From NCBI GenBank assembly GCA_964355955.1, contig CAYHFQ010000001.1, forward strand, positions 103,419-167,418: 64,000 bases of DNA, written 5' to 3'. Position numbers and translations under genes: made by a program. The DNA is from an uncultured Gammaproteobacteria bacterium. GTDB taxonomy: Bacteria; Patescibacteriota; Patescibacteriia; UBA9934. Positions 16,883 to 27,536 of the stretch are shown here, one piece after another (positions within the stretch are counted from its first letter, which is position 1; each line of letters begins with the position of its first letter). The notes below the pieces were generated by a model. The model made no database searches and had not been told where the DNA came from. It saw nothing but the letters and a program-made list of their open reading frames with translations.

Positions 16883-17476
16883 TCAGTTGAGTAGCAGCTT
16901 GAGGTGTCGGAGTTGGTCCTCAAGCTCACGCCACTTTTCGGAGCGGCAGTACAGCTCAGCGCTCAGCAACTCGACACCGCGCATGGCGTAGTTCTGTGGA
17001 CCATACCTCGGTCCACCAAAGTTGATTGGCCGCACCTCGAGCTCCACCACATGGATGAAGTGCTCCGCCAAGCATCGGACCCGTCGCCTGCGCTTCTGGT
17101 CACAGAAGATGGTGACGTCACCACGGTAGTCGGCATTCAGGCTGAGGATGACCTCGCGGAAAAGTTGTAATGACTCCGGCAAGCTCGCCGCTTCTTCCGT
17201 CGCCTTGAACGTAAACCGCTCAGTGTGGCCGAACCGATCGTTTAGTGCTTGCTGCAAATGGGGCAGGAACACCGAGGTCTCTGTCGATTCTGGCCGGTGT
17301 CGACTGGTCACCCTGCTGTTCAGGACAAAGCAGACTTGCTGCTCGACCGACCACTTGGCTACCTCCTCGGCTATCTGCTTGGCTCGTAGCCACAAAACTG
17401 TTTCACCATCGGTATCCCCGACCTTGGGAATACCGGCCAAACACAACAAGACGAGATGACGTTGTTTATTGTGCAT
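16883..17476 (-). CDS. Hypothetical protein X (GC-rich cassette), possible PD-(D/E)xK-like motif
   Basis: ORF from probable ATG at 17474-17476 (MHNKQRHLVLLCLAGIPKVGDTDGE...). A D...D-Q-K arrangement (NADYRGDVTIFCDQK) loosely resembles a PD-(D/E)xK nuclease core. No confident family assignment. Confidence 0.5.
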   Translation of the reverse strand: MHNKQRHLVLLCLAGIPKVGDTDGETVLWLRAKQIAEEVAKWSVEQQVCFVLNSRVTSRHRPESTETSVFLPHLQQALNDRFGHTERFTFKATEEAASLPESLQLFREVILSLNADYRGDVTIFCDQKRRRRVRCLAEHFIHVVELEVRPINFGGPRYGPQNYAMRGVELLSAELYCRSEKWRELEDQLRHLKLLLN

Positions 17477-17604
17477 TTCTGCTCCCTGTAATTTTACCGT
17501 CGCACCTTGCGCCAGTGCTCTAAGGTTGGCAGAATTTAGGCTTTTCGTCAAACAGAAAACCCTCACACCGCGAGGCATGAGAGCCTTCTGGTTGAGGGTT
17601 GAGT

Positions 17605-18091
17605 TCAACGCTTCGTGCTGGTCGATGCGGCTCGCAGCAGCTCGTTGTACAGCGGCCGCAGGTCACCTCGGGCTTGCAGCAAGTAGACGTGCAGGTCGCA
17701 CAGCTGATACCGGTCGTGCCACGCTTCGAGCTCATCCAGGGCTGCACCAGCCGGAGTCTTGATGGCTGTTGTCACCACTACCGCGACAATGCCAACCGCC
17801 TGACAACGTCGCACCTCCGTCGCCACCACCTCAGCGTTGATCGAAGTCAGTTCAAGGAAGACTACCTGCGGCTTGGTCTTCTCCTCGCCGAGCGGTATGG
17901 GCTTGTCTGGTTCGCTCGAGCGGTCCATCACCTGCAACCAGCCGTTCTGCGGCAAAGTTTCGTAGCGAGCGGTCAGGACTACCGGCGTCGAGTACGTCAC
18001 GATGAAGAAGCGGATGGGCTCGGTCTTGAGCAGGTTGACCAGCAGCGGCAAGAAGTCGTGAGCAAAGGCGAGAGTAAAAGGCTTGGAGGAC
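17605..18091 (-). CDS. Hypothetical protein Y (GC-rich cassette)
   Basis: ORF from probable ATG at 18089-18091 (MSSKPFTLAFAHDFLPLLVNLLK...). Co-directional with X, separated by ~130 nt. GC roughly 57% versus ~48-50% in flanking genes. Confidence 0.5.
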
Positions 18092-18227
18092 ATGGGGACT
18101 CCTGTTCGGTTGTGCATCTCGCGAATTACGAGACTAAACAATATACCAAAAATCCCCACTTTCGTCAATCTTCTAGTCGCGGTATACTGTTTAGGAAATT
18201 CGTTATTCACTGGCCGAAATACCGTCT

Positions 18228-19091
18228 ATGAAGATTAGAAAAGCTATCATTCCAGTGGCAGGAATGGGAACAAGATTCCTTCCAGCTACCAAAGCCCAAC
18301 CAAAAGAAATGCTGCCGGTCGTGGATAAGCCAGTCATTCAATACATCGTGGAAGAAGCCGTAGCTGCCGGCATTGAAGAGATTATTTTCGTTACCGCCAT
18401 CGGTAAGCAGGCACTCGAGAATCACTTTGACCGCAACTTCGAGCTCGAATATCGCTTGGAACAAAAAGGCAAACTCAAAGAACTCGAAGCCATTCGCGAG
18501 GTTGGCAAGCTCGCCAAGTTCGCCTTTGTCCGCCAGCAAAAGCCAATGGGTGACGGTCATGCTTTACTCTCCGCCGCCCCTTTTGTCGGTGCTGACGAAG
18601 CCGTGGCTGTGCTCTTCGGTGACGATATTATTACTGGGAAGGTTCCAGCTATCGGCCAGTTAATCGCCACCTACGAAAAATACGGCGACCCTGTCATCGC
18701 CATCCAAGAAATCCCCCGCGACCAAGTTTCCCGCTACGGCGTCATTGGTGGCGTCGAGCTCGATGCTTCTACCTGGCAAATTGACCGCTTTGTGGAAAAG
18801 CCAAAAGTCGAAGAAGCCCCAAGTAACCTAGCCGCTGTTGGTCGCTACATTATCACTCCCGAAATTCTGCGCCGCTTAGAAACTCAAACGCCAGGGAAAG
18901 ATGGTGAAATTCGTCTAGCTGATGCTTTCGAGGCTCAATTGGCCGACAATCGTCCGCTCTACGGCTGCAAATTTGCCGGTCGTCGCTACGACTGTGGCAA
19001 CAAACTCCAATTCATCATTGCCCAGATCGAGCTCGGCCTCACCCATCCCGAAGTCAGTGCAGACTTAAAGGAATATCTAAAGTCGCTCTAA
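18228..19091 (+). CDS. galU: UTP--glucose-1-phosphate uridylyltransferase
   Basis: N-terminal AIIPVAGMGTRFLPATKAQPKEMLPVVDKPVIQY signature of GalU. Confidence 0.9.
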   Translation: MKIRKAIIPVAGMGTRFLPATKAQPKEMLPVVDKPVIQYIVEEAVAAGIEEIIFVTAIGKQALENHFDRNFELEYRLEQKGKLKELEAIREVGKLAKFAFVRQQKPMGDGHALLSAAPFVGADEAVAVLFGDDIITGKVPAIGQLIATYEKYGDPVIAIQEIPRDQVSRYGVIGGVELDASTWQIDRFVEKPKVEEAPSNLAAVGRYIITPEILRRLETQTPGKDGEIRLADAFEAQLADNRPLYGCKFAGRRYDCGNKLQFIIAQIELGLTHPEVSADLKEYLKSL

Positions 19092-19092
19092 T

Positions 19093-20481
19093 ATGAATGC
19101 TAAACGTCTTGCCTCGGGCTTACTTTTATCCAGCCTCCTACTAACATTAGGTATCGGTTGTAGTGGCAAAGACGCGGCCAGCAGTATGCCGGAGGTAAAA
19201 CTTACTTATTGGCGTACTTTTGATAATAGCGACACCATGAGCGACATCATTACCGCCTACACTACACTCCATCCGAACGTCAGTATTGACTACAAAAAAT
19301 TGCGCAGTGACGAATACGATAATGCTCTTTTGCGTGCCTTTGCCGACGGTGCTGGCCCCGATATATTCTCCGTCCACAATAGCGCCATTGGCCAATACCA
19401 AAGCCTCCTTCTCCCTGAACCGGCCACTACCACCATTCCTTACGCTGAAATTCAAGGCACACTCCGCAAGCAAACTGTGGTCATTACTAAGGTTTTGCCG
19501 ACTGTCAGTATTAAGACGCTCAAGAGTGACTTTGTCGACACTGTAGCTGAGGACGTTATTTTCCCTTATCAGCCAGATCCTAAAGTTGCGGCTGAGGACC
19601 GGATTTATGGTTTGCCTTTGTCTGTCGACAGCCTTGCTCTGTATGCTAACAAAGATTTATTAAATGCGGTTAATATTCCTGCGGCTCCAGTTAACTGGCA
19701 AGAATTTCATGATGACGTTGTAAAACTCACAAAACTCGACAGTACTGGCAAAATTATCCAGTCTGGGGCTGGTTTTGGTACCAGTAAAAATGTTAATCGG
19801 GCGGTGGATATTCTTTCTGTGCTCATGATGCAGAACGGGGCCAACATGATTGACGACCGTGGCCGGGTGGCTTTCCAGACTGTACCAACTGGTACCGCTC
19901 AAGGACTTTTCCCAAGTCTTGATGCCACTACTTTCTATACCGACTTTGCTAACCCAACTAAGGATGCTTACACTTGGAACGAATCTTTCCCGTCATCTTT
20001 TGATGCCTTCACGGCTGGCCAAACTGCTTTTTATCTTGGCTACAGCTATGATTTGCCGCTTATTCGGACCGCGGCTCCAAAATTAAACTTCACCATTAAT
20101 AATCTGCCACAAATTCAGAATGGGCGGGAAGTGAATTATCCAAACTACTGGGTGGAAGGTGTTTCGAAAGATACCGAGAATGCCGATTGGGCCTGGGATT
20201 TTATTAATTTTGCCACCCGCAAAGAAAATGTCACCTCCTATTTAACCAAAGCTCAAAAGCCAACCGCTCTCCGTTCACTCATTAGCACTCAACTTGATAG
20301 CGAAGACCTAGGCGTCTTTGCTTCTCAACTTTTACTGGCTAAAAGCTGGTACCACGGTAAGGATACAGCCGCTATGGAAAAGGCTATGAACTCCTTCATC
20401 GACGCTATTCTCCTCGGTACCACGGATCCAACCTCTGCTATCGAGACCACCGCCCGTGTTGTCTCACAAACTTACGACTAG
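19093..20481 (+). CDS. ABC-transporter extracellular solute-binding lipoprotein (family 1, sugar-type)
   Basis: Lipobox LTLGIGCSG. About 460 aa with an SBP-like pattern. Confidence 0.65.
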   Translation: MNAKRLASGLLLSSLLLTLGIGCSGKDAASSMPEVKLTYWRTFDNSDTMSDIITAYTTLHPNVSIDYKKLRSDEYDNALLRAFADGAGPDIFSVHNSAIGQYQSLLLPEPATTTIPYAEIQGTLRKQTVVITKVLPTVSIKTLKSDFVDTVAEDVIFPYQPDPKVAAEDRIYGLPLSVDSLALYANKDLLNAVNIPAAPVNWQEFHDDVVKLTKLDSTGKIIQSGAGFGTSKNVNRAVDILSVLMMQNGANMIDDRGRVAFQTVPTGTAQGLFPSLDATTFYTDFANPTKDAYTWNESFPSSFDAFTAGQTAFYLGYSYDLPLIRTAAPKLNFTINNLPQIQNGREVNYPNYWVEGVSKDTENADWAWDFINFATRKENVTSYLTKAQKPTALRSLISTQLDSEDLGVFASQLLLAKSWYHGKDTAAMEKAMNSFIDAILLGTTDPTSAIETTARVVSQTYD

Positions 20482-20558
20482 GTAACTAAAAATTCACGTC
20501 TCGGCCGCACCCAGCGTCCGGGACGTGAATTTTTATTTCTGGTATACTTCCTACCAGT

Positions 20559-21089
20559 ATGATTGCCATTCGCAAATCTCTCCTCGCTTTAATCCTCGGC
20601 TTTACCTTGGCTACCGGCTTGTTCGGCTTCACGCCACCGGCTAAAGCCATCACTATCGATGGCGAATACACTAAGATCACCCAACTCGGCCTCATCTTCG
20701 CCAACGTCTGCTCCGTAGCTAGACCAGATAACGGCACCGATCCTTGTGCTTGTCGCGGCCAAGGACTCTGCACTGTGGATAACATTCTGCAAGTCATTGT
20801 CAACGTTAGCTACCTCATTCTCGCCCTCAGCGGTTCAGCTGCCCTAATCGCTCTCGTCTACGGCGGCCTCGAATGGGTCATTTCCGCCGGTAATCCCGAA
20901 CGTGTTAAACGCGGCAAAGATGCTTTGAGCGGCGCCGCCATTGGTCTTGCCATCGTCTTTGGTGCTTATGTCGCCATCAACCTCCTCATCAGCGTTCTAA
21001 ATAGCGGCAATATACCCACCACTAACCTCGAAACAACCATCGGTAACGGCGCAGATCAAACTATCACTACTGATACTTCAACACCCTAA
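20559..21089 (+). CDS. VirB2/TrbC-like (T4SS pilin-like) small secreted membrane protein, paralog 1
   Basis: Signal peptide, variable mature region, then a conserved C-terminal helix-loop-helix: LILALSGSAALIALVYGGLEWVISAGNPERVKRGKDALSGAAIGLAIVFGAYVAINLL. Confidence 0.6.
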   Translation: MIAIRKSLLALILGFTLATGLFGFTPPAKAITIDGEYTKITQLGLIFANVCSVARPDNGTDPCACRGQGLCTVDNILQVIVNVSYLILALSGSAALIALVYGGLEWVISAGNPERVKRGKDALSGAAIGLAIVFGAYVAINLLISVLNSGNIPTTNLETTIGNGADQTITTDTSTP

Positions 21090-21090
21090 T

Positions 21091-21474
21091 ATGATTACCA
21101 GACATCAAGCTAAACGTGGCGCCATCATTGTTGCGTACTCTCTAGTCCTACTATTGCCTCTCATTCCAGGTCTGGTTCGTGCTGAAGATACAACCACCGT
21201 CACTCTCTACAACCCACTCGGTATAACCGACGTTCGCGTCATCATTGGTCGCGTCATTAAAGGCATTCTAGGCATTGTTGGATCCCTCGCTTTCGTCATG
21301 TTCATCTACGGTGGCGTACTCTGGATGACGAGTGCTGGTAACGCCGATCGTGTAAAAAAAGGTCAAAGCATCTTGGTCTGGACGGTCCTAGGTCTCGGTG
21401 TAATTTTCTCTAGTTACGCCGCCGTCAACGCTATTCTCAACTCTATCACCACCGGCAGCGTCACAGGAACATAA
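21091..21474 (+). CDS. VirB2/TrbC-like pilin-like protein, paralog 2
   Basis: Conserved block LGIVGSLAFVMFIYGGVLWMTSAGNADRVKKGQSILVWTVLGLGVIFSSYAAVNAIL. Confidence 0.65.
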   Translation: MITRHQAKRGAIIVAYSLVLLLPLIPGLVRAEDTTTVTLYNPLGITDVRVIIGRVIKGILGIVGSLAFVMFIYGGVLWMTSAGNADRVKKGQSILVWTVLGLGVIFSSYAAVNAILNSITTGSVTGT

Positions 21475-21518
21475 CAATGTGCTATAATTAAATTATACAT
21501 TCACCTTAACATTTTACT

Positions 21519-21926
21519 ATGTCGAAAGTCTTCTCACGTCTCGTCATGGGACTTGGTCTCGCTACACTTCTCGTGTTGCCACTCGGCCTCTCCCACATCG
21601 GCTTTGTCCACGTTGCTCACGCCCAACAATTACAAACTAGCGATTTGCTTACCACCGGCTTCGGCGATACCGCTGGCCTTGGTCAAGCAGACTTAAAGAC
21701 GACTATTGGCAACCTCATCCGCGTCATGCTCGGTTTCCTCGGTGTCGTCGCAGTCATCATCATTCTCCTTGGTGGTTTCAAATGGATGACCGCTGGTGGC
21801 AACGACGAGAAAGTGCAAGAAGCTAAGAACCTCATCATCGCTGGTATCATCGGCTTGGCCATCATTCTCTCCGCCTTTGCCATCGCTAGCTTCGTCATCA
21901 GCTCCATCATCGGCGCCACACAGTAA
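21519..21926 (+). CDS. VirB2/TrbC-like pilin-like protein, paralog 3
   Basis: Conserved block LGFLGVVAVIIILLGGFKWMTAGGNDEKVQEAKNLIIAGIIGLAIILSAFAIASFVI. Confidence 0.65.
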   Translation: MSKVFSRLVMGLGLATLLVLPLGLSHIGFVHVAHAQQLQTSDLLTTGFGDTAGLGQADLKTTIGNLIRVMLGFLGVVAVIIILLGGFKWMTAGGNDEKVQEAKNLIIAGIIGLAIILSAFAIASFVISSIIGATQ

Positions 21927-21990
21927 ACCTCAATTTCATTTAGATTCTCGAATGACGGTCGGGCTGCAGTTGGTCTGCAACCTCTCCGCT

Positions 21991-22383
21991 ATGCGAAAAT
22001 TCTTCCTCGCCAGTTTACTGGCTGTTTCTTTGTTAGTGCCTCAGCTTACTTTAGCCGCCGACTCAGCTGCTACTAGCTATGGCTTAGAGTCGAGCGGTGG
22101 TGCCGCTGGTCTTCTCACGAATTCCGCAGAAAATACCAATATTACTACCTTTATCGGCTCGTTCATCATCAAGCCTATTCTCGGCTTGGTCGGACTTGGC
22201 TTCTTCATTCTCATGATCTACGGCGGCGTCCTCTGGATGGCTGCTGGCGGCAACGAAACTATCGTCAAAAAAGCCCAAAGCATCCTCACTAGCGCAGTTA
22301 TTGGTGCCATTATTATCATTGCCGCTTACGCCCTCACCAATGCCGTGCTCAACGCTATCACCGCTGGCAATATCTCTGGTTAA
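21991..22383 (+). CDS. VirB2/TrbC-like pilin-like protein, paralog 4
   Basis: Real start ATG 21991 (MRKFFLASLLAVSLL signal peptide). The track ORF 21796..22383 has a spurious upstream extension that overlaps paralog 3. Conserved block LGLVGLGFFILMIYGGVLWMAAGGNETIVKKAQSIL. Confidence 0.65.
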   Translation: MRKFFLASLLAVSLLVPQLTLAADSAATSYGLESSGGAAGLLTNSAENTNITTFIGSFIIKPILGLVGLGFFILMIYGGVLWMAAGGNETIVKKAQSILTSAVIGAIIIIAAYALTNAVLNAITAGNISG

Positions 22384-22392
22384 ACGCTCAGT

Positions 22393-22809
22393 ATGAAAAA
22401 AATTGCCTACGCTTTTCTAGCCAGTCTACTTCTCCTTCCATCCTTCACTTTCGCTGCTGATCCGCCAGCCACACCATCAACCACCAATAGCTCTATTTAC
22501 AGTTCTGGCCTCAACACCGGCGCTAACGCTGCCTACGACAATGCTCTACCTAACGCGGATCTCCTCGGCGTCATTACCCTTCTCATCAAAGCCGTGCTCG
22601 GTCTTCTCGGTGTCGTCTTCCTCGTGCTCATCATCTACGCTGGCATTCTCTGGCTAACTGCTGCCGGCAACGAAGACCGTGTCAAAAAAGCTCAGGGTAT
22701 TCTCAAGAACGCAGTTATCGGTATCTTCATCGTCATAACTGCTTACGCTATCAGTTATTTCATCCTAACAAATATTTCCAATTCCATGACACAAATTTAT
22801 AGCCCATAA
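22393..22809 (+). CDS. VirB2/TrbC-like pilin-like protein, paralog 5
   Basis: Signal peptide MKKIAYAFLASLLLLPSFTFA. Conserved block LGLLGVVFLVLIIYAGILWLTAAGNEDRVKKAQGILKNAVIG. Confidence 0.65.
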   Translation: MKKIAYAFLASLLLLPSFTFAADPPATPSTTNSSIYSSGLNTGANAAYDNALPNADLLGVITLLIKAVLGLLGVVFLVLIIYAGILWLTAAGNEDRVKKAQGILKNAVIGIFIVITAYAISYFILTNISNSMTQIYSP

Positions 22810-22876
22810 GTACCACTTATCGTCCCTCACACTTCATGTTATAATGCTACTGTCTTAAAAATTTTAACCCTTCGCT

Positions 22877-23266
22877 ATGAAGTTAAAGAACATTCTCGTG
22901 GCTGCGGCGCTCTTCGCCCTGCCCTTCGCTCCAATGCTAGTTACCACAACGCACGCTGCCGGTATCGACGTCACAACGAAGCTTGGCACTGTTGGTAGTG
23001 GAGCTGGTTACTCAGCTCAAACTGCCGACTCACTCACTAATACCATCGGCGTACTTATCCAAACTCTTCTCGGTTTCCTCGGTGTCGTCTTCCTCATCCT
23101 TATCATCTACGCTGGTCTTCTTTGGATGACTGCCGCTGGTAACGAAGATAAAGTTAAGAAAGCCCAGGGCATTCTCATGAGCTCCGTCATTGGCCTCATC
23201 ATCTTGCTCTCCGCTTACGCTATCAGCTACTTCGTCATCAGCAACATTCAAAGCTCCATTCAGTAA
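22877..23266 (+). CDS. VirB2/TrbC-like pilin-like protein, paralog 6
   Basis: Conserved block LGFLGVVFLILIIYAGLLWMTAAGNEDKVKKAQGILMSSVIG. Followed by terminator hairpin AGAGCCTGCGGGCTCTTTTT at ~23284-23303. Confidence 0.65.
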   Translation: MKLKNILVAAALFALPFAPMLVTTTHAAGIDVTTKLGTVGSGAGYSAQTADSLTNTIGVLIQTLLGFLGVVFLILIIYAGLLWMTAAGNEDKVKKAQGILMSSVIGLIILLSAYAISYFVISNIQSSIQ

Positions 23267-23377
23267 ACTCACTTACACACAAAAAGAGCCTGCGGGCTCT
23301 TTTTCGTTGTAAACAAAAAGTGGCCCCGGGAAGTAAATCCCGGGCGCCACGTCTGCCGTACGGTTCTTGCTACTTCA

Positions 23378-23899
23378 TCAACGGCAGGAGATGAAGGAGA
23401 TGCTGCGACTGTTCGGATTGGTCGTGGCCGAGTAGCAGGTCGTCGGCAACTTGGTCGCCTTGATGACGATGGCCAGACCGTTCTCTATCACCGGTGGGAT
23501 GCCGGCGTTGTCGTAGTGGTCGCCATAGGCAGTGATGGCTTCTTGCCCATCCGTGACGCCCACATAGTACTTGTCGCCATAGTGGTCGGAGACCAGTACG
23601 GACGTCATCCGGCCGTTGATCCGCGCCACGATCGGCACCGGTGCCCCGTGGTCCATCTTGAAGACGGTCACGGTATCACACCCGGTGTAGTGCGGTACGA
23701 CCATCCTCACCTCCTTCGGCACCCGCAACATGAAGATGCTAGGGCCGAGCTTGGAGAAGTCAGATGGCTCGACCTGCAAGAGACGGCAGGACCTCTGCTC
23801 GATCGCGATCTGCTGCGTCGGCGACAAGCCGCTGAACTCAGAGGCCTTGATACCACCGACGAGGAACAGAACAAGGGAAAGAATCATCGTAGACTCCAT
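23378..23899 (-). CDS. Secreted hypothetical protein (GC-rich island)
   Basis: Signal peptide MILSLVLFLVGG. GC-rich codon usage. A minus-strand terminator hairpin GGCGCCCGGGATTTACTTCCCGGGGCC plus T-run lies just downstream (23320-23350). Confidence 0.6.
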   Translation of the reverse strand: MESTMILSLVLFLVGGIKASEFSGLSPTQQIAIEQRSCRLLQVEPSDFSKLGPSIFMLRVPKEVRMVVPHYTGCDTVTVFKMDHGAPVPIVARINGRMTSVLVSDHYGDKYYVGVTDGQEAITAYGDHYDNAGIPPVIENGLAIVIKATKLPTTCYSATTNPNSRSISFISCR

Positions 23900-24010
23900 G
23901 GCACTCGGCCAACGGTTGTGAATGGAAGTTATTTTTGCTCGGCTCCTCTCTACCCGTTAAGGGAAAGGACCAAACGCGATGCGCGGGGTGGGCTAGTCCC
24001 CCTTTCTGCC

Positions 24011-24643
24011 CTACTCGACGTTGTCGTCTACAATCTTGGGCGGCGGTGCCGGCTTGTCCTGGGTCTTGACCCCCGTGGACTTGCCGCTCTGCTCGCCCTG
24101 ATTGTTGAGCATCTGCTCCGCCTGGTCCATGGCGTCGAGTGCCTGGGCCGTGCTCAGGTGGCCGATGCCGCCGTAGTAGCCACCGATGCCGTCCGGCCAA
24201 CGGTTGACGCTATTCGCCTGCGCCTCACCGACCGGATCGGACACCCGCTTGATGACGTCGCCGTCGATCGAACAGGTGACGTTGCCGTCGCCCTCCAAGC
24301 TCTTGAAGCAGGTCTTGTAGGCTTCGAGGTGCGCCTCAACCTCCAGCTCGTGCTTCTTCTGATCGAACGTCTGTTCGTTCAGCGCCAGCAACTGGTCGGT
24401 CTCGGCCTGGGTGACCTGGACGTTCGCCAACGTGGTCTTCACGTTGTTGTCCGTCAGAGCGGTCAGGGCCTTGACCCCAATGCAGACCGTCCGCGGGGTC
24501 GTCGCTCCGTTCACTCCGTCCACCACCAACTTGGTGTGGCCGAAGGGCGGGCAGTCGATGTCCGAGTGGACGTTGATGTTGGCGTCCACGAGGGTGATGG
24601 GCTCGGCCGCGAGGGCCAGGGAAAGTGCGAGTGAAAGGATCAT
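24011..24643 (-). CDS. Secreted hypothetical protein (GC-rich island)
   Basis: Likely start ATG 24641-24643 (MILSLALSLALAAEP), a signal peptide similar to that of the neighbouring 23378..23899 product. Four Cys residues (C29, C52, C110, C123) in the mature region. Confidence 0.55.
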   Translation of the reverse strand: MILSLALSLALAAEPITLVDANINVHSDIDCPPFGHTKLVVDGVNGATTPRTVCIGVKALTALTDNNVKTTLANVQVTQAETDQLLALNEQTFDQKKHELEVEAHLEAYKTCFKSLEGDGNVTCSIDGDVIKRVSDPVGEAQANSVNRWPDGIGGYYGGIGHLSTAQALDAMDQAEQMLNNQGEQSGKSTGVKTQDKPAPPPKIVDDNVE

Positions 24644-24817
24644 TACAGTCTCTTGGTGAATGGCCAAAGCGGCCAGTTGGTGAGGTATCGCCGCCTATTT
24701 CCTCGGGAATCGAGGCTTTTGACGGACCTAGTAATATAGCAAAAAAACTGCCTTTTGTCAATCACTCACCAACTTTCTTGGCTCTAATTAGCCACAATTT
24801 AGCACTTAATCTGAAGC

Positions 24818-24849
24818 TCTCCCCCAGCCATGGGGAAGTTGGAGGGGGC
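24818..24849. repeat. Palindromic ~33 bp element, intergenic copy (reverse orientation)
   Basis: CTCCCCCAGCCATGGGGAAGTTGGAGGGGGC is the reverse complement, with one change, of the element found inside five CDSs (31473, 45264, 57747, 59425, 62764). Confidence 0.7.
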
Positions 24850-25037
24850 TTTTAGTAACTTCGCAAAGTCAAAACAGCTGGACAAAAACCCAAAAATATG
24901 CTAAATTTCCCGGTCAGCAAACTGCAAATTTGCTGCCGTTTCCCCGTTTTTTCACAACGACGAACCCATTCCGGGCCCACCGTCTTCAAGTTAGTTAACG
25001 TCCACAACGCCCTCCAAAGGGCATTACAGGAGCCATC

Positions 25038-27119
25038 ATGGCCGCCAAATTTGACGAACTCTCCCGCGACATCGACCTCAACCTCAACCAGAGGGGGTTC
25101 GACTCCACTCTGCACAGCATCAAGAACAAGGAGGGTAACCTCGTCCTCGACGCCATCGGCGAAACTGCCGTGGAAAACGTCATGCATGAGGTGGCCACTT
25201 CCCTCGACGCAACCGAGATCATCAAGCTCGGAACCGTCACGGACCTCCTCCTGGCGCTCATTTTGGCTCTGCCTGACGTCAGCCGCAAGTACCTGGCCAA
25301 CTTGCTCGCCAAGCAGGTGAAGAAGGTCCTGAGCGACAAGTCCCTCGTCTCCGACGTGACGGCTGCTATGCTGATCGAAGCCCTGGATCAGGGTAACGCC
25401 ATGGTCATGACCATCCTCGACAACGCTGGTCTGCAGCCCGAGGACATGCGGGCCGCGTTGCTCGACAAGTTCAGCGTGGACATCAAGGAACTCAAGGTCT
25501 GGTTGGCCGGCAAGCTCCCCGCCATCATCGGCGGTCACAGCAGCGGCGGAACCGACCCAGGTCACGACACCAGCCACGGCCCCACCGCGGTTGCCGTCGC
25601 CGCCCCGGTCCTCAACCGCCACCGGGCACAGTTGAATGGCCGCTTGGACATCATGAAGGGTTGGGATAGCCCTGTGCAGGACCTGCTGACCGCCCTGCAA
25701 AATGGTGCAGCTATCGAGGCCCATGGTGACCCGAGCAAGCTTGATGGTACGCCCCTGCCCAAAGACCAACGTCAATGGCTCGGTCTCGCTCATGGCTTCG
25801 TCAAGGGAATCGAGATCATGGTGGAAGATGACGGAGCCCGTGCGACCCTAAAAGCGTCGCTCGAGCAGCTCATCGCCAAGGGCGTGACCAAGGAAGAGTT
25901 GAGTGCCAACCCGCTCGACAAAGCCGGTCACTTCATCCACGGCGTGGTGAAAATCGGTCACAGTGACAAAATGACCGCCATCCTTGACCGGGCGGACGAA
26001 GCCATCGACCTGACAGAGGCCAGGGCTCACCTGCGCCGCTTCATGGGTAAGGACAAACCCACTGTCATCATCGACGTCCCGGAGAAAGACGCCGACGGTA
26101 ATGTAATCGTCCTGTCCAAGGAACAGCAGGTGGAGCGTAAGAAGGAAGCAGAAGAAAAGCGGCTGGCCAACCGCACCAAGTTCGAAGTTGTCACTGAAGA
26201 GGCAGAGGCTTGGAGCAGGTGGGGTCTCAAAAAGATCAAGCAGGCAGTCGGCATCTACGTTGGCAGTGCTGTGACCATCTGCCTGGTCGCCACCGTCGAT
26301 ACCTTCCAGACCCATCTCCTGGAAGGCTGGCTCGCCATTGCGCACAACGTGGTGTTGGGTCTGGCCGTCTGCGGCCTGTTCACGAGTTCCATCGTGTTGA
26401 TCATCGCCCGTCTCGGGCTCTCGGTTCTCGACGCACCGCTGAAGGTCATCGCCAAGTTCATCAAGACGATACCCGGCCAGGAAGACTTCACGTTTGAGGA
26501 TGCCCCCATCTTCAAGCAGGCCAACCTCATCACCATCGTCGTCTTCGGGCTCGGGGTGCTGTTCACGGTTATCGCCATCTTCTGCGCCGTGGGCGGAGGT
26601 TCCGTCATGCTGCCCATCCTGGCCATCCTCGGAGTCTTCTCCTTGGGTGCTTGGGGCGAGCTACAGAAACGTTTCTTCCATGCCAAGTGGTCGGGGCACG
26701 CTCCGGCTGCTGGTCATGATGCTCATCCGACAGCTCCGGCTGGAGGCGGACACGCTCATGATCCTGGTGAGGAGCGCAAGCTCCAGAAGGCAGAGGTCAA
26801 CTTCCTCACCGGACTCAAGGTGTTCTACGTCTTGATGGCTGTGTTCTTCGGAACTCTGATCATCACCGGTGTAGTGACTGCGGGTTACCGCTACCACCAA
26901 ACAAGTCTGGATAAGGCAGCAGCCGCCGAAGTCACAGTCACCACGGAGCGCACCGCGGACTGCGCCGAGGTCACGGCCACTCTGACCAAGTGGGCCGGCG
27001 TGTGGAACGTCAAGAACAACTACCCGGATGAAGGGAGTCGGTTCAGCCACATGTGCGAAGAGACACAGAGCGAGAAGATCGGAACCGCTTGCGCCAAGCA
27101 GGCCTCTCTCTGCCGCTAG
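25038..27119 (+). CDS. Large hypothetical membrane protein (693 aa; ~400 aa soluble N-terminal region, five predicted TM helices, Cys-rich C-terminal tail)
   Basis: Long ORF with GC-rich third positions. TM helices around IYVGSAVTICLVATV, VVLGLAVCGLFTSSIVLIIARL, ITIVVFGLGVLFTVIAIFCAV, MLPILAILGVFSLGAWG and VFYVLMAVFFGTLIITGVV. Antisense ORFs (24852..25793 and others) are taken as GC-driven artefacts. Confidence 0.6.
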   Translation: MAAKFDELSRDIDLNLNQRGFDSTLHSIKNKEGNLVLDAIGETAVENVMHEVATSLDATEIIKLGTVTDLLLALILALPDVSRKYLANLLAKQVKKVLSDKSLVSDVTAAMLIEALDQGNAMVMTILDNAGLQPEDMRAALLDKFSVDIKELKVWLAGKLPAIIGGHSSGGTDPGHDTSHGPTAVAVAAPVLNRHRAQLNGRLDIMKGWDSPVQDLLTALQNGAAIEAHGDPSKLDGTPLPKDQRQWLGLAHGFVKGIEIMVEDDGARATLKASLEQLIAKGVTKEELSANPLDKAGHFIHGVVKIGHSDKMTAILDRADEAIDLTEARAHLRRFMGKDKPTVIIDVPEKDADGNVIVLSKEQQVERKKEAEEKRLANRTKFEVVTEEAEAWSRWGLKKIKQAVGIYVGSAVTICLVATVDTFQTHLLEGWLAIAHNVVLGLAVCGLFTSSIVLIIARLGLSVLDAPLKVIAKFIKTIPGQEDFTFEDAPIFKQANLITIVVFGLGVLFTVIAIFCAVGGGSVMLPILAILGVFSLGAWGELQKRFFHAKWSGHAPAAGHDAHPTAPAGGGHAHDPGEERKLQKAEVNFLTGLKVFYVLMAVFFGTLIITGVVTAGYRYHQTSLDKAAAAEVTVTTERTADCAEVTATLTKWAGVWNVKNNYPDEGSRFSHMCEETQSEKIGTACAKQASLCR

Positions 27120-27251
27120 ATTAGCCCGGCAGAATCAACCATCAACAATTAACCCAAAAGGGGAACACTACTCGTGAGAGCGGTGAGCATATAGTCTTCC
27201 ATAGTGGAATATGAACTGTATGTCTCATCGCTCTCTTCTTTTTGTGGTTTT

Positions 27252-27536
27252 TTAGTCGTCCTTTGTGGCTGGATGTTCAGTATTAATTTGAGCCTCATGA
27301 AATTGTTTGATGAGAGCTAGATAGTTAGTGTAAGTTATTTGCTCGATGTGACCAGTGACGGCAATATCACGAGCGAAGAGAGCAGAAAAGTGGTCAGGAC
27401 CACAGGAGGCTTCGATGGAATATTGCTGACCAGCAATAAGGCCATCGCCGAGGATGGGCGCGACGGGGAAACCGAGGGTAATGAGTTGGCGATGAAAGGA
27501 GGTGAAGAGTTCGTTGTTGATGGTGATGGTAGTCAT
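27252..27536 (-). CDS. Hypothetical protein (94 aa)
   Basis: ORF only. No motif recognised. Confidence 0.4.
   Translation of the reverse strand: MTTITINNELFTSFHRQLITLGFPVAPILGDGLIAGQQYSIEASCGPDHFSALFARDIAVTGHIEQITYTNYLALIKQFHEAQINTEHPATKDD

What the first reader, a model, noticed from the sequence alone, without database searches (positions are those of the whole stretch)
20559..23266. Tandem array of six paralogous VirB2/TrbC-like (T4SS pilin-like) small proteins
Six consecutive same-strand genes (each 127-176 aa; the fourth is 130 aa from ATG 21991) encode a signal peptide, a divergent Thr/Ser/Gly-rich mature N-region, and a conserved C-terminal helix-loop-helix (…LG.LGVV…IY.G..WMTAAGNED.VKKAQ.IL…IG..I…AYAI…). 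This is the architecture of conjugative-pilin VirB2/TrbC-type proteins (compare RP4 TrbC IIWAGYKMMMGHA). No VirB4/VirD4 ATPase lies in the window, so the array could be remote from its machinery or could serve a different surface function. The hypervariable N-regions suggest diversifying selection, possibly antigenic or host-interaction variation.
Basis: partly seen in the sequence, partly recalled or inferred. Interest (0 to 1): 0.6.

Follow-up and report, generated by a model that had tools for sequence, protein, structure and literature searches.

The report
Six-gene VirB2-like pilin array, Uhrbacteria
The six small genes are real and belong to the VirB2-like "T4SS pilin" family, whose tandem arrays are already described in the ultra-small Patescibacteria, so this is a new example of a known thing, though here it sits far from any secretion motor and next to a sugar-binding lipoprotein.

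Summary
Observation confirmed. Six same-strand ORFs (20559-23266) each encode a signal peptide, a variable N-region and a conserved two-helix hairpin. All six match Pfam PF18895 (T4SS_pilin), five above the curated cut-off. The genome is a Candidatus Uhrbacteria (Patescibacteria, class ABY1).

Tandem arrays of 2-11 divergent VirB2-like pilins in Patescibacteria are published (Wang 2023; Quinonero-Coronel 2025). The kind is therefore known.

What I add:
- The array is not a recent, fast-diversifying duplication. Gene order by paralog type (1-2-3-then 4/5/6-like) holds in 63 of 67 informative related loci.
- Orthologs are under purifying selection (C-domain dN/dS 0.00-0.35, N-region at most about 0.4, apart from 0.68 and 0.88 on 21 codons each).
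- A sugar-type solute-binding lipoprotein lies within 250 bp upstream in 41 loci.
- No VirB4/VirD4 was found from -7 to +74 kb here, nor within 10 kb of the array in 79 related genomes.
- Three checkable ABY1 genomes with such arrays do carry VirB4 elsewhere, but only 18 of 36 listed Uhrbacteria assemblies do.

Most likely these are Sec-exported pilin subunits for an unlinked T4SS. A T4SS-independent role is not excluded.

In passing: a roughly 10-kb inversion carrying the array, and a covarying RNA hairpin between genes 3 and 4.

The parts
18228..19091 (+). galU-like UTP-glucose-1-phosphate uridylyltransferase; its stop lies 1 nt before the SBP start codon
   Evidence: Pfam NTP_transferase, E = 2e-30. 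The same family lies upstream of the array in 28 related loci.
19093..20481 (+). Probable lipoprotein, carbohydrate-type extracellular solute-binding protein (SBP_bac_1/8); no ABC permease or ATPase next to it; the most conserved neighbour of the array
   Evidence: Pfam PF01547, E = 1.7e-21, and PF13416. Weak GanS/MalE NCBIfam hits. Signal segment ending LGIGC. Upstream on the same strand in 40 of the 59 loci where upstream DNA is visible, and within 250 bp of the first pilin gene in 41 loci.
20484..20538 (+). Terminator-like hairpin after the SBP gene (AAAAATTCACGTC...GACGTGAATTTTT)
   Evidence: Inverted repeat I2, 25-nt arms, 88% complementary. Partly found by the terminator scan.
20540..20548 (+). 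Extended -10 promoter element TGgTATACT, 10 nt before the ATG of gene 1 (near-leaderless transcript)
   Evidence: TGnTATACT is conserved at the same distance in 7 orthologous loci while the surrounding sequence varies. Inference from a phylogenetic footprint; not found by the consensus scan because there is no -35.
20559..21089 (+). Pilin paralog W1 (176 aa): signal peptide 1-30 (AKA|I), N-domain with 4 conserved Cys (C51, C63, C65, C71), hairpin, Thr-rich C-terminal tail
   Evidence: PF18895 36.6 bits. In 36 of 41 loci with an adjacent SBP the first gene is W1-type, and the Cys positions are conserved in Uhrbacteria orthologs.
21091..21474 (+). Pilin paralog W2 (127 aa): signal peptide 1-31 (VRA|E), very short N-region (12 aa)
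   Evidence: PF18895 39.1 bits; full-length sub-threshold TrbC match, 16.9 bits. Positional orthologs.
21460..21488 (+). Promoter-like site before gene 3 (GTCACA-17-TATAAT with TG)
   Evidence: Promoter scan, 10 of 12 matches. TGTGCTATAAT/TGTGCTATACT is conserved in 7 orthologous loci.
21519..21926 (+). Pilin paralog W3 (135 aa): signal peptide 1-35 (AHA|Q); the most conserved paralog
   Evidence: PF18895 40.1 bits. The C-domain is 99-100% identical to orthologs at dS 0.5-1.0, with dN/dS 0.00-0.07.
21956..21988 (+). Conserved RNA hairpin between genes 3 and 4 (12 bp), ending 2 nt before the ATG of gene 4
   Evidence: RNAalifold finds 12 pairs, 7 with compensatory changes, in 7 orthologs. 95% of cells are paired against 43-56% when slid; covariation 0.647 against at most 0.24; 0 of 500 shuffles reach the observed value.
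21991..22383 (+). Pilin paralog W4 (130 aa): signal peptide 1-22 (TLA|A)
   Evidence: PF18895 23.9 bits, just below the cut-off. Aligns with its paralogs. Positional orthologs.
22393..22809 (+). Pilin paralog W5 (138 aa): signal peptide 1-21 (TFA|A), 36-aa Ser/Thr/Pro-rich N-region; the fastest-evolving paralog
   Evidence: PF18895 35.3 bits. Orthologs are 91% to 45% identical where W3 is 96% to 76%.
22837..22845 (+). Extended -10 element TGtTATAAT about 30 nt before gene 6
   Evidence: Conserved in orthologous loci, together with the leader. Read directly from the sequence.
22877..23266 (+). Pilin paralog W6 (129 aa): signal peptide 1-27 (THA|A); W5/W6-type genes are the ones whose copy number varies (2-8) in other lineages
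   Evidence: PF18895 37.0 bits; NF045849 39.3 against 40 bits. AlphaFold2 model with pLDDT above 90 for the hairpin H50-84 / loop 85-89 / H90-128. Type strings.
23281..23307 (+). Intrinsic terminator after gene 6 (AAAAAGAGCC-TGCG-GGCTCTTTTT)
   Evidence: Inverted repeat I15; sequence.

Best explanation
The six genes are the Uhrbacteria (Patescibacteria, class ABY1) version of the 'VirB2-like pilin array' already described for Patescibacteria.

How it most likely works:
- Each product is exported by Sec, and its type-I signal peptide is cut at an AxA site.
- The product then sits in the cytoplasmic membrane as a helical hairpin. The variable N-terminus and the C-terminus face outside. The short basic loop (AGNED-KVKK) faces inside. 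This is the topology of VirB2/TraA-type pilins.
- I infer that the subunits are then extracted and assembled into a pilus-like or conduit structure. The assembling machine would be the chromosomal, monoderm-type (MPF_FATA-like) type IV secretion system that most Patescibacteria carry. Here it would be encoded elsewhere in the genome.

The paralogs are old and specialised, not interchangeable copies:
- Type 1 is Cys-rich and always comes first, directly after a sugar-binding lipoprotein gene.
- Types 2 and 3 follow in fixed order. Type 3 is almost invariant and has its own promoter.
- A variable number of type 4/5/6 genes, with fast-evolving exposed N-termini, comes last.
- This points to a heteromeric structure (base, shaft and tip, or major and minor subunits) rather than to antigenic switching.

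The lipoprotein and galU may supply a glycan-binding or glycan-related partner function.

Shown: family membership, predicted topology, conservation, gene order, selection regime, linkage to the SBP, and absence of a nearby ATPase.
Inferred: polymerisation, dependence on a T4SS, and a role at the host-cell interface.
For: Family and taxon:
- PF18895 hits for 6 of 6 proteins, 5 above the cut-off. All 47 family members tested match PF18895, and TrbC is joint second (with DUF898) among secondary matches (8 of 47 each, best E = 2e-4).
- hhalign against real VirB2/TrbC is collinear over both helices, with W83 on the VirB2 Trp (P = 4.6e-4).
- Near-threshold match to the Mycoplasma-ICE pilin-like conjugal transfer family NF045849 (39.3 and 37.2 against 40 bits).
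- The AlphaFold2 model shows a signal helix and a confident hairpin. Hydropathy gives a signal segment plus two TM helices in all six.
- The taxon is Uhrbacteria.

Literature:
- 441 VirB2 arrays of 2-11 genes, averaging 25% identity (PMC12102498).
- Six divergent pilins are essential in Southlakia (PMC10633639; PMC12857230).
- VirB4 is present in 2,417 of 3,035 assemblies.

Conservation:
- Positional orthology in 14 six-gene loci.
- Type order is monotone in 63 of 67 informative loci against 4.1 expected.
- Purifying selection.
- Conserved promoters and an intercistronic hairpin.

Link to a T4SS: three ABY1 genomes with the same kind of unlinked array (L021, L052, L057) are scored VirB4-positive in Table S1 of PMC12102498.
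Against: - No T4SS gene lies near the array. None is found in the window or from -7 to +74 kb of the contig. None lies within 10 kb of the array in 79 related species-level genomes; the Walker-A ORFs there are FtsK, IF2, ComM, SMC and UvrA.
- Only 18 of 36 Uhrbacteria assemblies in one block of Table S1 have a VirB4 hit. Presence of the machine in this genome is therefore not assured, and I could not test it.
- The canonical TrbC/VirB2 model is not matched above threshold.
- Foldseek against the PDB gives nothing significant (best E = 1.9). A helical hairpin is a generic fold.
- No pilus has been seen for any Patescibacteria T4SS in the papers I read.
- A related genome fuses the same domain to Ig-like domains (L037). 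That fits a plain membrane anchor as well as a pilin.
Confidence: 0.6

Rival explanations
1. T4SS-independent surface module. The lipoprotein SBP and the hairpin proteins form a Sec-delivered membrane or surface complex of their own. It could be a glycan-capturing or adhesive patch whose variable N-termini are displayed on a two-helix anchor. It would need no VirB4 machine.
For: - SBP-array adjacency is the most conserved feature of the locus (41 loci within 250 bp).
- There is never a VirB4 within 10 kb.
- Half of the listed Uhrbacteria assemblies have no VirB4 hit, several of them 1.0-1.1 Mb in size.
- The pilin domain is used as an N-terminal anchor for Big_5 Ig-like domains in L037.
Against: - The family is homologous to T4SS pilins.
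- In Saccharibacteria the same kind of array sits inside the essential T4SS cluster.
- Three of three checkable ABY1 genomes with unlinked arrays have VirB4.
- The 'No' calls come from draft MAGs, where a missing gene is weak evidence.
- A terminator-like hairpin separates the SBP gene from gene 1, and gene 1 has its own promoter. Co-transcription is therefore not obligatory.
Confidence: 0.2
2. Antigenic or host-range variation cassette. The copies would be recent duplicates kept diverse by positive selection on the exposed N-region, used alternately or mixed to evade or match hosts.
For: - The N-regions of genes 4-6 diverge much faster than the hairpin (26-58% identity where the C-domain is 56-90%).
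- The copy number of type 5/6 genes varies from 2 to 8 between lineages.
- The same idea is raised for Patescibacteria arrays in PMC12102498.
Against: - Every paralog has a one-to-one positional ortholog across Uhrbacteria.
- Type order is conserved class-wide.
- Pairwise dN/dS is below 1 in all N-regions with unsaturated dS.
- Types 1-3 have conserved N-regions.
- No repeats or gene-conversion tracts were found between the copies. Paralogs are only 25-48% identical.
Confidence: 0.1
3. A split membrane permease for the adjacent solute-binding protein (six proteins of two helices each giving twelve helices).
For: An orphan carbohydrate-type SBP lies directly upstream, and no ABC permease or ATPase is in the window.
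Against: - Copy number ranges from 4 to 12 between genomes.
- All copies carry cleavable signal peptides and exposed variable N-termini.
- There is no similarity to any transporter family above noise.
- There is no energising subunit.
Confidence: 0.03

Closest known systems
VirB2-like pilin arrays of Patescibacteria: the essential six-pilin series in the T4SS cluster SEML1_0006-0019 of Ca. Southlakia epibionticum, and the 441 arrays catalogued by Quinonero-Coronel et al. 2025
   Same: - Same phylum and same Pfam family (PF18895).
- Tandem same-strand genes, six in Southlakia as here.
- Structurally conserved but sequence-divergent. The paper reports an average of 25% and a maximum of 54% identity. 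Here the values are 25-29% to W1 and 48% for W5-W6.
- Chromosomal, not on a mobile element, and within about 20 kb of dnaA.
   Different: - Here the array is not in a virB4 neighbourhood. No T4SS gene lies from -7 to +74 kb, and none within 10 kb in 79 related loci.
- It is coupled to a solute-binding lipoprotein and galU, which the paper's main text does not mention (the word 'solute' occurs 0 times in it).
- I find a conserved order of specialised paralog types and purifying selection, which the published accounts do not describe.
- The published arrays were reported as most abundant in Microgenomatia and Saccharimonadia, not ABY1.
VirB2/TrbC conjugative and T-pilus pilins of MPF_T systems (Pfam PF04956; Agrobacterium VirB2, TrbC/VirB2 proteins of alphaproteobacterial plasmids)
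   Same: - Long signal peptide cut at an Ala-x-Ala site.
- A mature protein that is essentially two hydrophobic helices joined by a short loop.
- A Trp near the end of helix 1, and a small-residue motif in helix 2.
- Weak collinear profile match.
   Different: - Scores are below the PF04956 cut-off.
- There is an extra variable N-region of 12-42 residues.
- The host is a monoderm.
- Six paralogs instead of one gene.
- Not followed by virB3-virB4, as it is in all six plasmid loci I fetched.
Mbov_0395 / MMCAP2_0565 family pilin-like conjugal transfer protein of Mycoplasma ICEs (NCBIfam NF045849)
   Same: An 80-residue two-helix domain aligned end to end (profile positions 6-80 of 80). It comes from monoderm or wall-less bacteria whose T4SS is of the MPF_FATA lineage, in which the Patescibacteria VirB4 clade is nested.
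   Different: - Scores are just under the curated cut-off (39.3 and 37.2 against 40 bits).
- The Mycoplasma proteins are single genes inside an ICE next to VirB4/VirD4 homologues.
- No ICE features are present here.
Tandem VirB2 paralogs of Anaplasma, Ehrlichia and Bartonella T4SSs
   Same: Several divergent VirB2 copies in a row in a host-dependent bacterium with a reduced genome.
   Different: - Those are diderm MPF_T systems with canonical PF04956 pilins.
- They are interpreted as antigenic variation.
- Here the copies are ancient positional orthologs under purifying selection.

Membership tests
Pfam PF18895 T4SS_pilin | HMM score at or above the gathering cut-off (26.6 bits) | tested here: met
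   Scores of 36.6, 39.1, 40.1, 35.3 and 37.0 bits for W1, W2, W3, W5 and W6. W4 scores 23.9 bits (E = 4.6e-5), just below, but is clearly a paralog. All 47 relatives tested match.
Pfam PF18895 T4SS_pilin | Small protein with an N-terminal signal peptide followed by a two-helix hydrophobic hairpin | tested here: met
   Hydropathy gives a signal segment plus two TM helices in all six. AlphaFold2 model of W6: H3-21, H50-84, loop, H90-128, with pLDDT above 90 in the hairpin.
TrbC/VirB2 pilin (Pfam PF04956) | HMM score at or above the gathering cut-off (27.9 bits) | tested here: not met
   Best scores are 16.9 bits (W2, E = 0.0074) and 13.8 bits (W1). The other four give no hit. 8 of 47 relatives match at E < 0.01.
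TrbC/VirB2 pilin (Pfam PF04956) | Detectable profile-profile homology to bona fide VirB2/TrbC proteins | tested here: inconclusive
   hhalign of 47 family members against 7 annotated VirB2/TrbC proteins from MPF_T plasmids gives P = 4.6e-4, probability 33% and 59 collinear columns over both helices. Hydrophobic composition may inflate this.
TrbC/VirB2 pilin (Pfam PF04956) | Encoded in a T4SS operon (virB1-virB2-virB3-virB4 context) | tested here: not met
   No T4SS gene is in the window or in its extensions. None lies within 10 kb in 79 related loci.
TrbC/VirB2 pilin (Pfam PF04956) | Polymerises into an extracellular pilus in a VirB4-dependent manner | not testable with these tools
   Needs microscopy, fractionation or genetics.
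Patescibacteria VirB2-like pilin array (Wang 2023; Quinonero-Coronel 2025) | Two to eleven tandem genes matching PF18895/PF04956 in a Patescibacteria chromosome, with low identity between copies | tested here: met
   Six genes. 25-29% identity to W1 and 48% for W5-W6. Uhrbacteria assignment from 93%-identical L006 and other loci. Criteria taken.
Patescibacteria VirB2-like pilin array (Wang 2023; Quinonero-Coronel 2025) | Located in the virB4 neighbourhood (within 20 CDS) | tested here: not met
   There is no VirB4 from about 26 kb upstream to about 50 kb downstream of the array.
Patescibacteria VirB2-like pilin array (Wang 2023; Quinonero-Coronel 2025) | Genome encodes the Patescibacteria-clade VirB4 | not testable with these tools
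   - The source contig (1,085,513 bp) cannot be read beyond 10 kb either side of the window's genes.
- Proxy data: 3 of 3 ABY1 genomes with such arrays are VirB4-positive.
- Only 18 of 36 Uhrbacteria assemblies are VirB4-positive.
NCBIfam NF045849 Mbov_0395 pilin-like conjugal transfer protein | Score at or above the curated cut-off (40 bits) | tested here: not met
   Scores of 39.3 (W6), 37.2 (W3), 27.1 (W5), 20.4 (W2), 15.3 (W4) and 11.3 (W1). W6 and W3 are near misses, which indicates relatedness but not membership.
Type IV pilins (T4P/T2SS pseudopilins) | Class III signal peptide with the G|F/M-x-x-x-E prepilin peptidase site | tested here: not met
   Reading the N-termini shows classical n-h-c signal peptides ending in AKA, VRA, AHA, TLA, TFA and THA, with no G-F-T-L-I-E motif. 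There are no T4P Pfam hits.
ABC importer (SBP-dependent) | SBP gene accompanied by permease (BPD_transp_1-type) and ATPase genes | tested here: not met
   The SBP is present, but no permease or ABC ATPase was found among the 32 scanned non-pilin window ORFs, which include every ORF of 300 aa or more; about 15 ORFs of 150-299 aa were not scanned. None appears among the conserved neighbour families either.

The most novel reading that the evidence does not exclude
In Uhrbacteria and related ABY1 lineages the conserved module 'sugar-binding lipoprotein plus ordered set of VirB2-like hairpin proteins' may have become independent of any type IV secretion ATPase.

It would then be a Sec-delivered, self-assembling surface or membrane structure descended from conjugative pilins. 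The organism would use it to bind or harvest host glycans.

Grounds:
- The module is never linked to VirB4.
- It is under strong purifying selection.
- About half of the listed Uhrbacteria assemblies have no VirB4 hit.
Probability: 0.15. Interest if true: 0.7.

Novelty: new member of a known kind. Interest (0 to 1): 0.3.

Why it matters
The T4SS and its pilin series are essential for the only genetically tractable patescibacterium, and their role is described in the literature as completely unknown.

This locus shows that in another large class (ABY1) the pilin genes form a separate, deeply conserved and internally ordered unit tied to a sugar-binding lipoprotein.

That gives concrete hypotheses to test:
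- The structure is heteromeric, with fixed roles for types 1, 2 and 3 and a variable set of exposed subunits.
- The structure may have a glycan-binding partner.
- A comparative test is available: does the array always co-occur with VirB4?

As a discovery in itself it is modest, because the family and the array phenomenon are already published.

Tried and rejected
- Alignment-based locus search with all six paralogs failed because no stretch was conserved enough. I repeated it with the three closest paralogs.
- A PDB sequence search with the family profile returned only designed 'Pizza' propeller proteins. These came from a repeated 20-residue motif, each stretch with i-E of about 160, and are spurious.
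- Foldseek of the W6 model against the PDB gave nothing below E = 1.9. The top hits were generic hairpins such as ATP synthase subunit c and histidine-kinase DHp.
- tblastn of W6 against 72,556 plasmids gave no match at E <= 1.
- I looked for a VirB4 next to related arrays. Every Walker-A ORF of 400 aa or more in the 79 loci was identified as FtsK, IF2, ComM/Mg-chelatase-like, SMC or UvrA, or had no family.
- L037, a second pilin-domain locus in a close relative, was checked as a possible T4SS locus. It is a pilin-Big_5 fusion among housekeeping genes.
- The unannotated proteins downstream (173, 218, 693 and 480 aa) have no Pfam or NCBIfam hits. The 693- and 480-aa proteins also have no Walker A motif. 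The 693-aa protein has 4-5 TM helices, but nothing ties it to VirB6.
- No long inverted repeats were found at the inversion boundaries.
- I could not walk along the source contig, because the contig look-up accepts only proteins encoded in the window.
- I first read the strong GC skew as leading-strand bias from an origin at dnaA. I withdrew that, because the skew keeps its sign upstream of dnaA.

Full report
**1. Observation**

The six ORFs exist as described: 20559-21089, 21091-21474, 21519-21926, 21991-22383, 22393-22809 and 22877-23266, all on the + strand. I call them W1 to W6.

Their alignment shows a divergent N-part (5-41% pairwise identity) and a conserved C-block (29-64%).

Each protein has an n-h-c signal peptide ending in AKA, VRA, AHA, TLA, TFA or THA, and two further hydrophobic helices.

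Orthologs start with the same MRK, and the L006 ORF has no upstream start.

**2. Family**

- All six match Pfam PF18895 'T4SS_pilin' (E = 4e-10 to 5e-5). Five exceed the gathering cut-off.
- The canonical TrbC/VirB2 model PF04956 is matched only below threshold (16.9 and 13.8 bits).
- NCBIfam's Mycoplasma-ICE 'pilin-like conjugal transfer protein' NF045849 is a near miss (39.3 and 37.2 against 40 bits).
- Among 47 family members, 47 match PF18895 and 8 match TrbC at E < 0.01.
- I fetched seven genuine VirB2/TrbC proteins from MPF_T plasmids, each sitting just upstream of virB3. A profile-profile comparison gave a weak but collinear match over both helices (P = 4.6e-4, probability 33%).
- An AlphaFold2 model of W6 shows a signal helix, a short helix, and a confident hairpin of residues 50-84 and 90-128 joined by the AGNED loop. 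The fold is too simple for Foldseek to discriminate.
- With the basic residues just after the loop, the predicted topology is N-out, loop-in, C-out, as in VirB2/TraA pilins. The topology of VirB2/TraA is established knowledge; applying it here is inference.

**3. Organism and setting**

- The closest loci in species-representative genomes are Candidatus Uhrbacteria (93%, 82%, 79% identity). Nearly all 79 related loci are Patescibacteria.
- The exact protein occurs on a 1,085,513-bp NCBI contig and on a 188-kb ENA contig.
- The window starts at dnaA/dnaN and is otherwise housekeeping: PBP1, AhpC, an aminotransferase, PGI, galU, OTCase, cell-envelope genes and RuvB.
- No VirB4, VirD4 or VirB6 is present in the window, in the 7 kb upstream of it, or in the 10 kb downstream.

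**4. What is already known**

- Quinonero-Coronel et al. 2025 (PMC12102498) searched 3,035 Patescibacteria genomes with PF04956 and PF18895. They report VirB2-like pilins in 1,948 VirB4-positive assemblies.
- Wang et al. 2023 (PMC10633639) showed that the T4SS cluster of Ca. Southlakia epibionticum, including a series of predicted pilins, is essential.
- A 2025 review describes that series as six structurally conserved, sequence-divergent VirB2-like pilins.

This locus is a further member.

**5. What the comparison adds**

(a) Arrays are the rule. An HMM of the six paralogs finds arrays in 78 of the 79 loci, with 4-12 genes in 76 of them and a mode of six.

(b) The paralogs are ancient and ordered.
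- In 14 six-gene Uhrbacteria-clade loci, the best hit is the same-position window gene at positions 1-3 and 6 in all 14, and at position 4 in 13. Position 5 is W5-like in six loci and W6-like in eight. The score margin is large for W1-W3.
- Across all loci the order of types is 1, then 2, then 3, then 4/5/6-like in 63 of 67 informative loci. Shuffling the order gives 4.1 on average and 13 at most.
- The loci are not phylogenetically independent. Even so, the pattern spans Uhr-, Falkow-, Magasanik- and Buchananbacteria.
- Type 1 carries four conserved cysteines in its outside domain. Type 5/6 is the one that expands.

(c) Selection.
- Against orthologs at dS of about 0.3-2, the C-domain has dN/dS of 0.00-0.35 (0.14 or less in W1-W4 and W6 against the four closest relatives) and the N-region mostly 0.02-0.4.
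- The highest N-region values are 0.68 and 0.88, each on 21 codons.
- Many distant comparisons are saturated in dS.
- W3 is nearly invariant. W5 evolves fastest.
- This does not support diversifying selection as the main force. However, pairwise averages have low power for single sites.

(d) Linkage.
- The most conserved neighbour is the carbohydrate-type solute-binding lipoprotein (window 19093-20481). It is upstream on the same strand in 40 of 59 loci with visible upstream DNA, and within 250 bp of the first pilin gene in 41 loci. That first gene is type 1 in 36 of them.
- galU precedes it in 28 loci.
- No ABC permease or ATPase accompanies it.

(e) No ATPase nearby. None of the 79 loci has a VirB4-like gene within 10 kb.

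(f) Regulation.
- Conserved extended -10 boxes precede W1 (10 nt before the ATG, hence a nearly leaderless transcript), W3 and W6.
- W2 starts 1 nt after W1, and W5 starts 9 nt after W4. Neither has a promoter of its own.
- Hairpins follow the SBP gene and W6.
- A 12-bp hairpin between W3 and W4 is kept by compensatory changes.
- The likely transcription units are W1-W2, W3(-W4-W5) and W6.

**6. Does the genome have the machine?**

I could not read the rest of the source contig.

Indirect evidence points both ways:
- Three ABY1 genomes in which I see the same unlinked array are VirB4-positive in Table S1 of PMC12102498. VirB4 is present in 80% of all assemblies.
- In the block of Table S1 that lists 36 Uhrbacteria assemblies, only 18 are VirB4-positive, and several negatives are 1.0-1.1 Mb. 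These are draft MAGs, so absence is weak evidence.

I put the T4SS-pilin model at about 0.6 and a T4SS-independent role at about 0.2.

**7. Verdict**

- The finding is real and correctly identified at family level.
- It is ordinary in kind for this phylum.
- Its context differs from the published cases: it is unlinked to virB4, coupled to an SBP, and made of ordered, specialised paralogs. I did not see that context described in the papers I read.

Noticed in passing
window 16900-27300: A roughly 10-kb block (galU, SBP, the six pilin genes and three unannotated genes) is inverted relative to both flanks when compared with four close relatives (L006-L009). It still carries the opposite strand composition. 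Third-position GC skew of the pilin genes is -0.29 to -0.80 (W4's -0.29 was computed on the over-extended ORF 21796-22383; the other five are -0.53 to -0.80), against +0.5 to +0.6 in + strand flank genes. In the relatives, flanks and block share one sign. This is a recent inversion private to this lineage. No long inverted repeats lie at the ends.
   Followed up: yes
window 1-64000 and L085 1-21140: There is an unusually strong strand asymmetry. GC skew of the + strand is +0.2 to +0.4 almost everywhere, whatever strand the genes are on. It does not change sign on the other side of dnaA, so the skew does not place the origin at dnaA.
   Followed up: partly
window 21956-21988: A conserved RNA hairpin lies between pilin genes 3 and 4. 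It has 12 pairs, 7 with compensatory changes in 7 orthologs, and 95% of cells are paired against 43-56% when slid. It is followed by a conserved CCTCC(A/G)CT ATG. It may stabilise the 3' end of the W3 message, or attenuate or occlude W4.
   Followed up: yes
window 19093-20481 and 41 related loci: An orphan carbohydrate-type solute-binding lipoprotein, with no permease or ATPase, is almost always the gene directly before the first (Cys-rich, type 1) pilin gene across class ABY1. Where the array is split, the SBP stays with the type 1 or type 2 gene (L026, L039, L052, L053, L057, L065, L079).
   Followed up: partly
window 25038-27119: A 693-aa protein without any family hit has a soluble N-terminal part of about 400 aa, 4-5 TM helices and a Cys-rich C-terminus. 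It keeps its place downstream of the array in L006, L007 and L009, but is only 36% and 30% identical to its L006 and L007 counterparts, while its neighbours are 63-99% identical. The region 23.3-27.1 kb also has raised GC (0.57-0.62) and long shadow ORFs on both strands.
   Followed up: partly
L037 5283-7163: In a close relative (the same MAG as L008), a second locus encodes a 626-aa protein with an N-terminal pilin domain (PF18895, 26.3 bits) fused to Big_5 Ig-like domains. It lies among housekeeping genes. Here the hairpin serves as an anchor for a surface domain.
   Followed up: partly
loci L010, L013, L014, L017 and about 30 others; L045, L050, L073: Many species-representative genomes that carry these Patescibacteria-type arrays are titled 'uncultured Gammaproteobacteria bacterium' (binchicken co-assemblies). 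Single ones are titled Acutalibacteraceae, Candidatus Udaeobacter or Lysobacteraceae. These are probably mislabelled records or contaminant contigs.
   Followed up: no
Table S1 of PMC12102498 (supplement 2, part 11): VirB4 detection is much patchier in Uhrbacteria (18 of 36 assemblies) than in the Woesebacteria (31 of 39) or Wolfebacteria (8 of 8) listed next to them. Near-identical-looking '_FULL_47_x' bins differ in their calls. Either the VirB4 region bins poorly, or it is variably present in this lineage.
   Followed up: partly
window 20540-20558: The conserved -10 box of pilin gene 1 ends only 10 nt before the start codon. None of the six genes has a recognisable Shine-Dalgarno sequence upstream. 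This suggests leaderless or SD-independent initiation.
   Followed up: no
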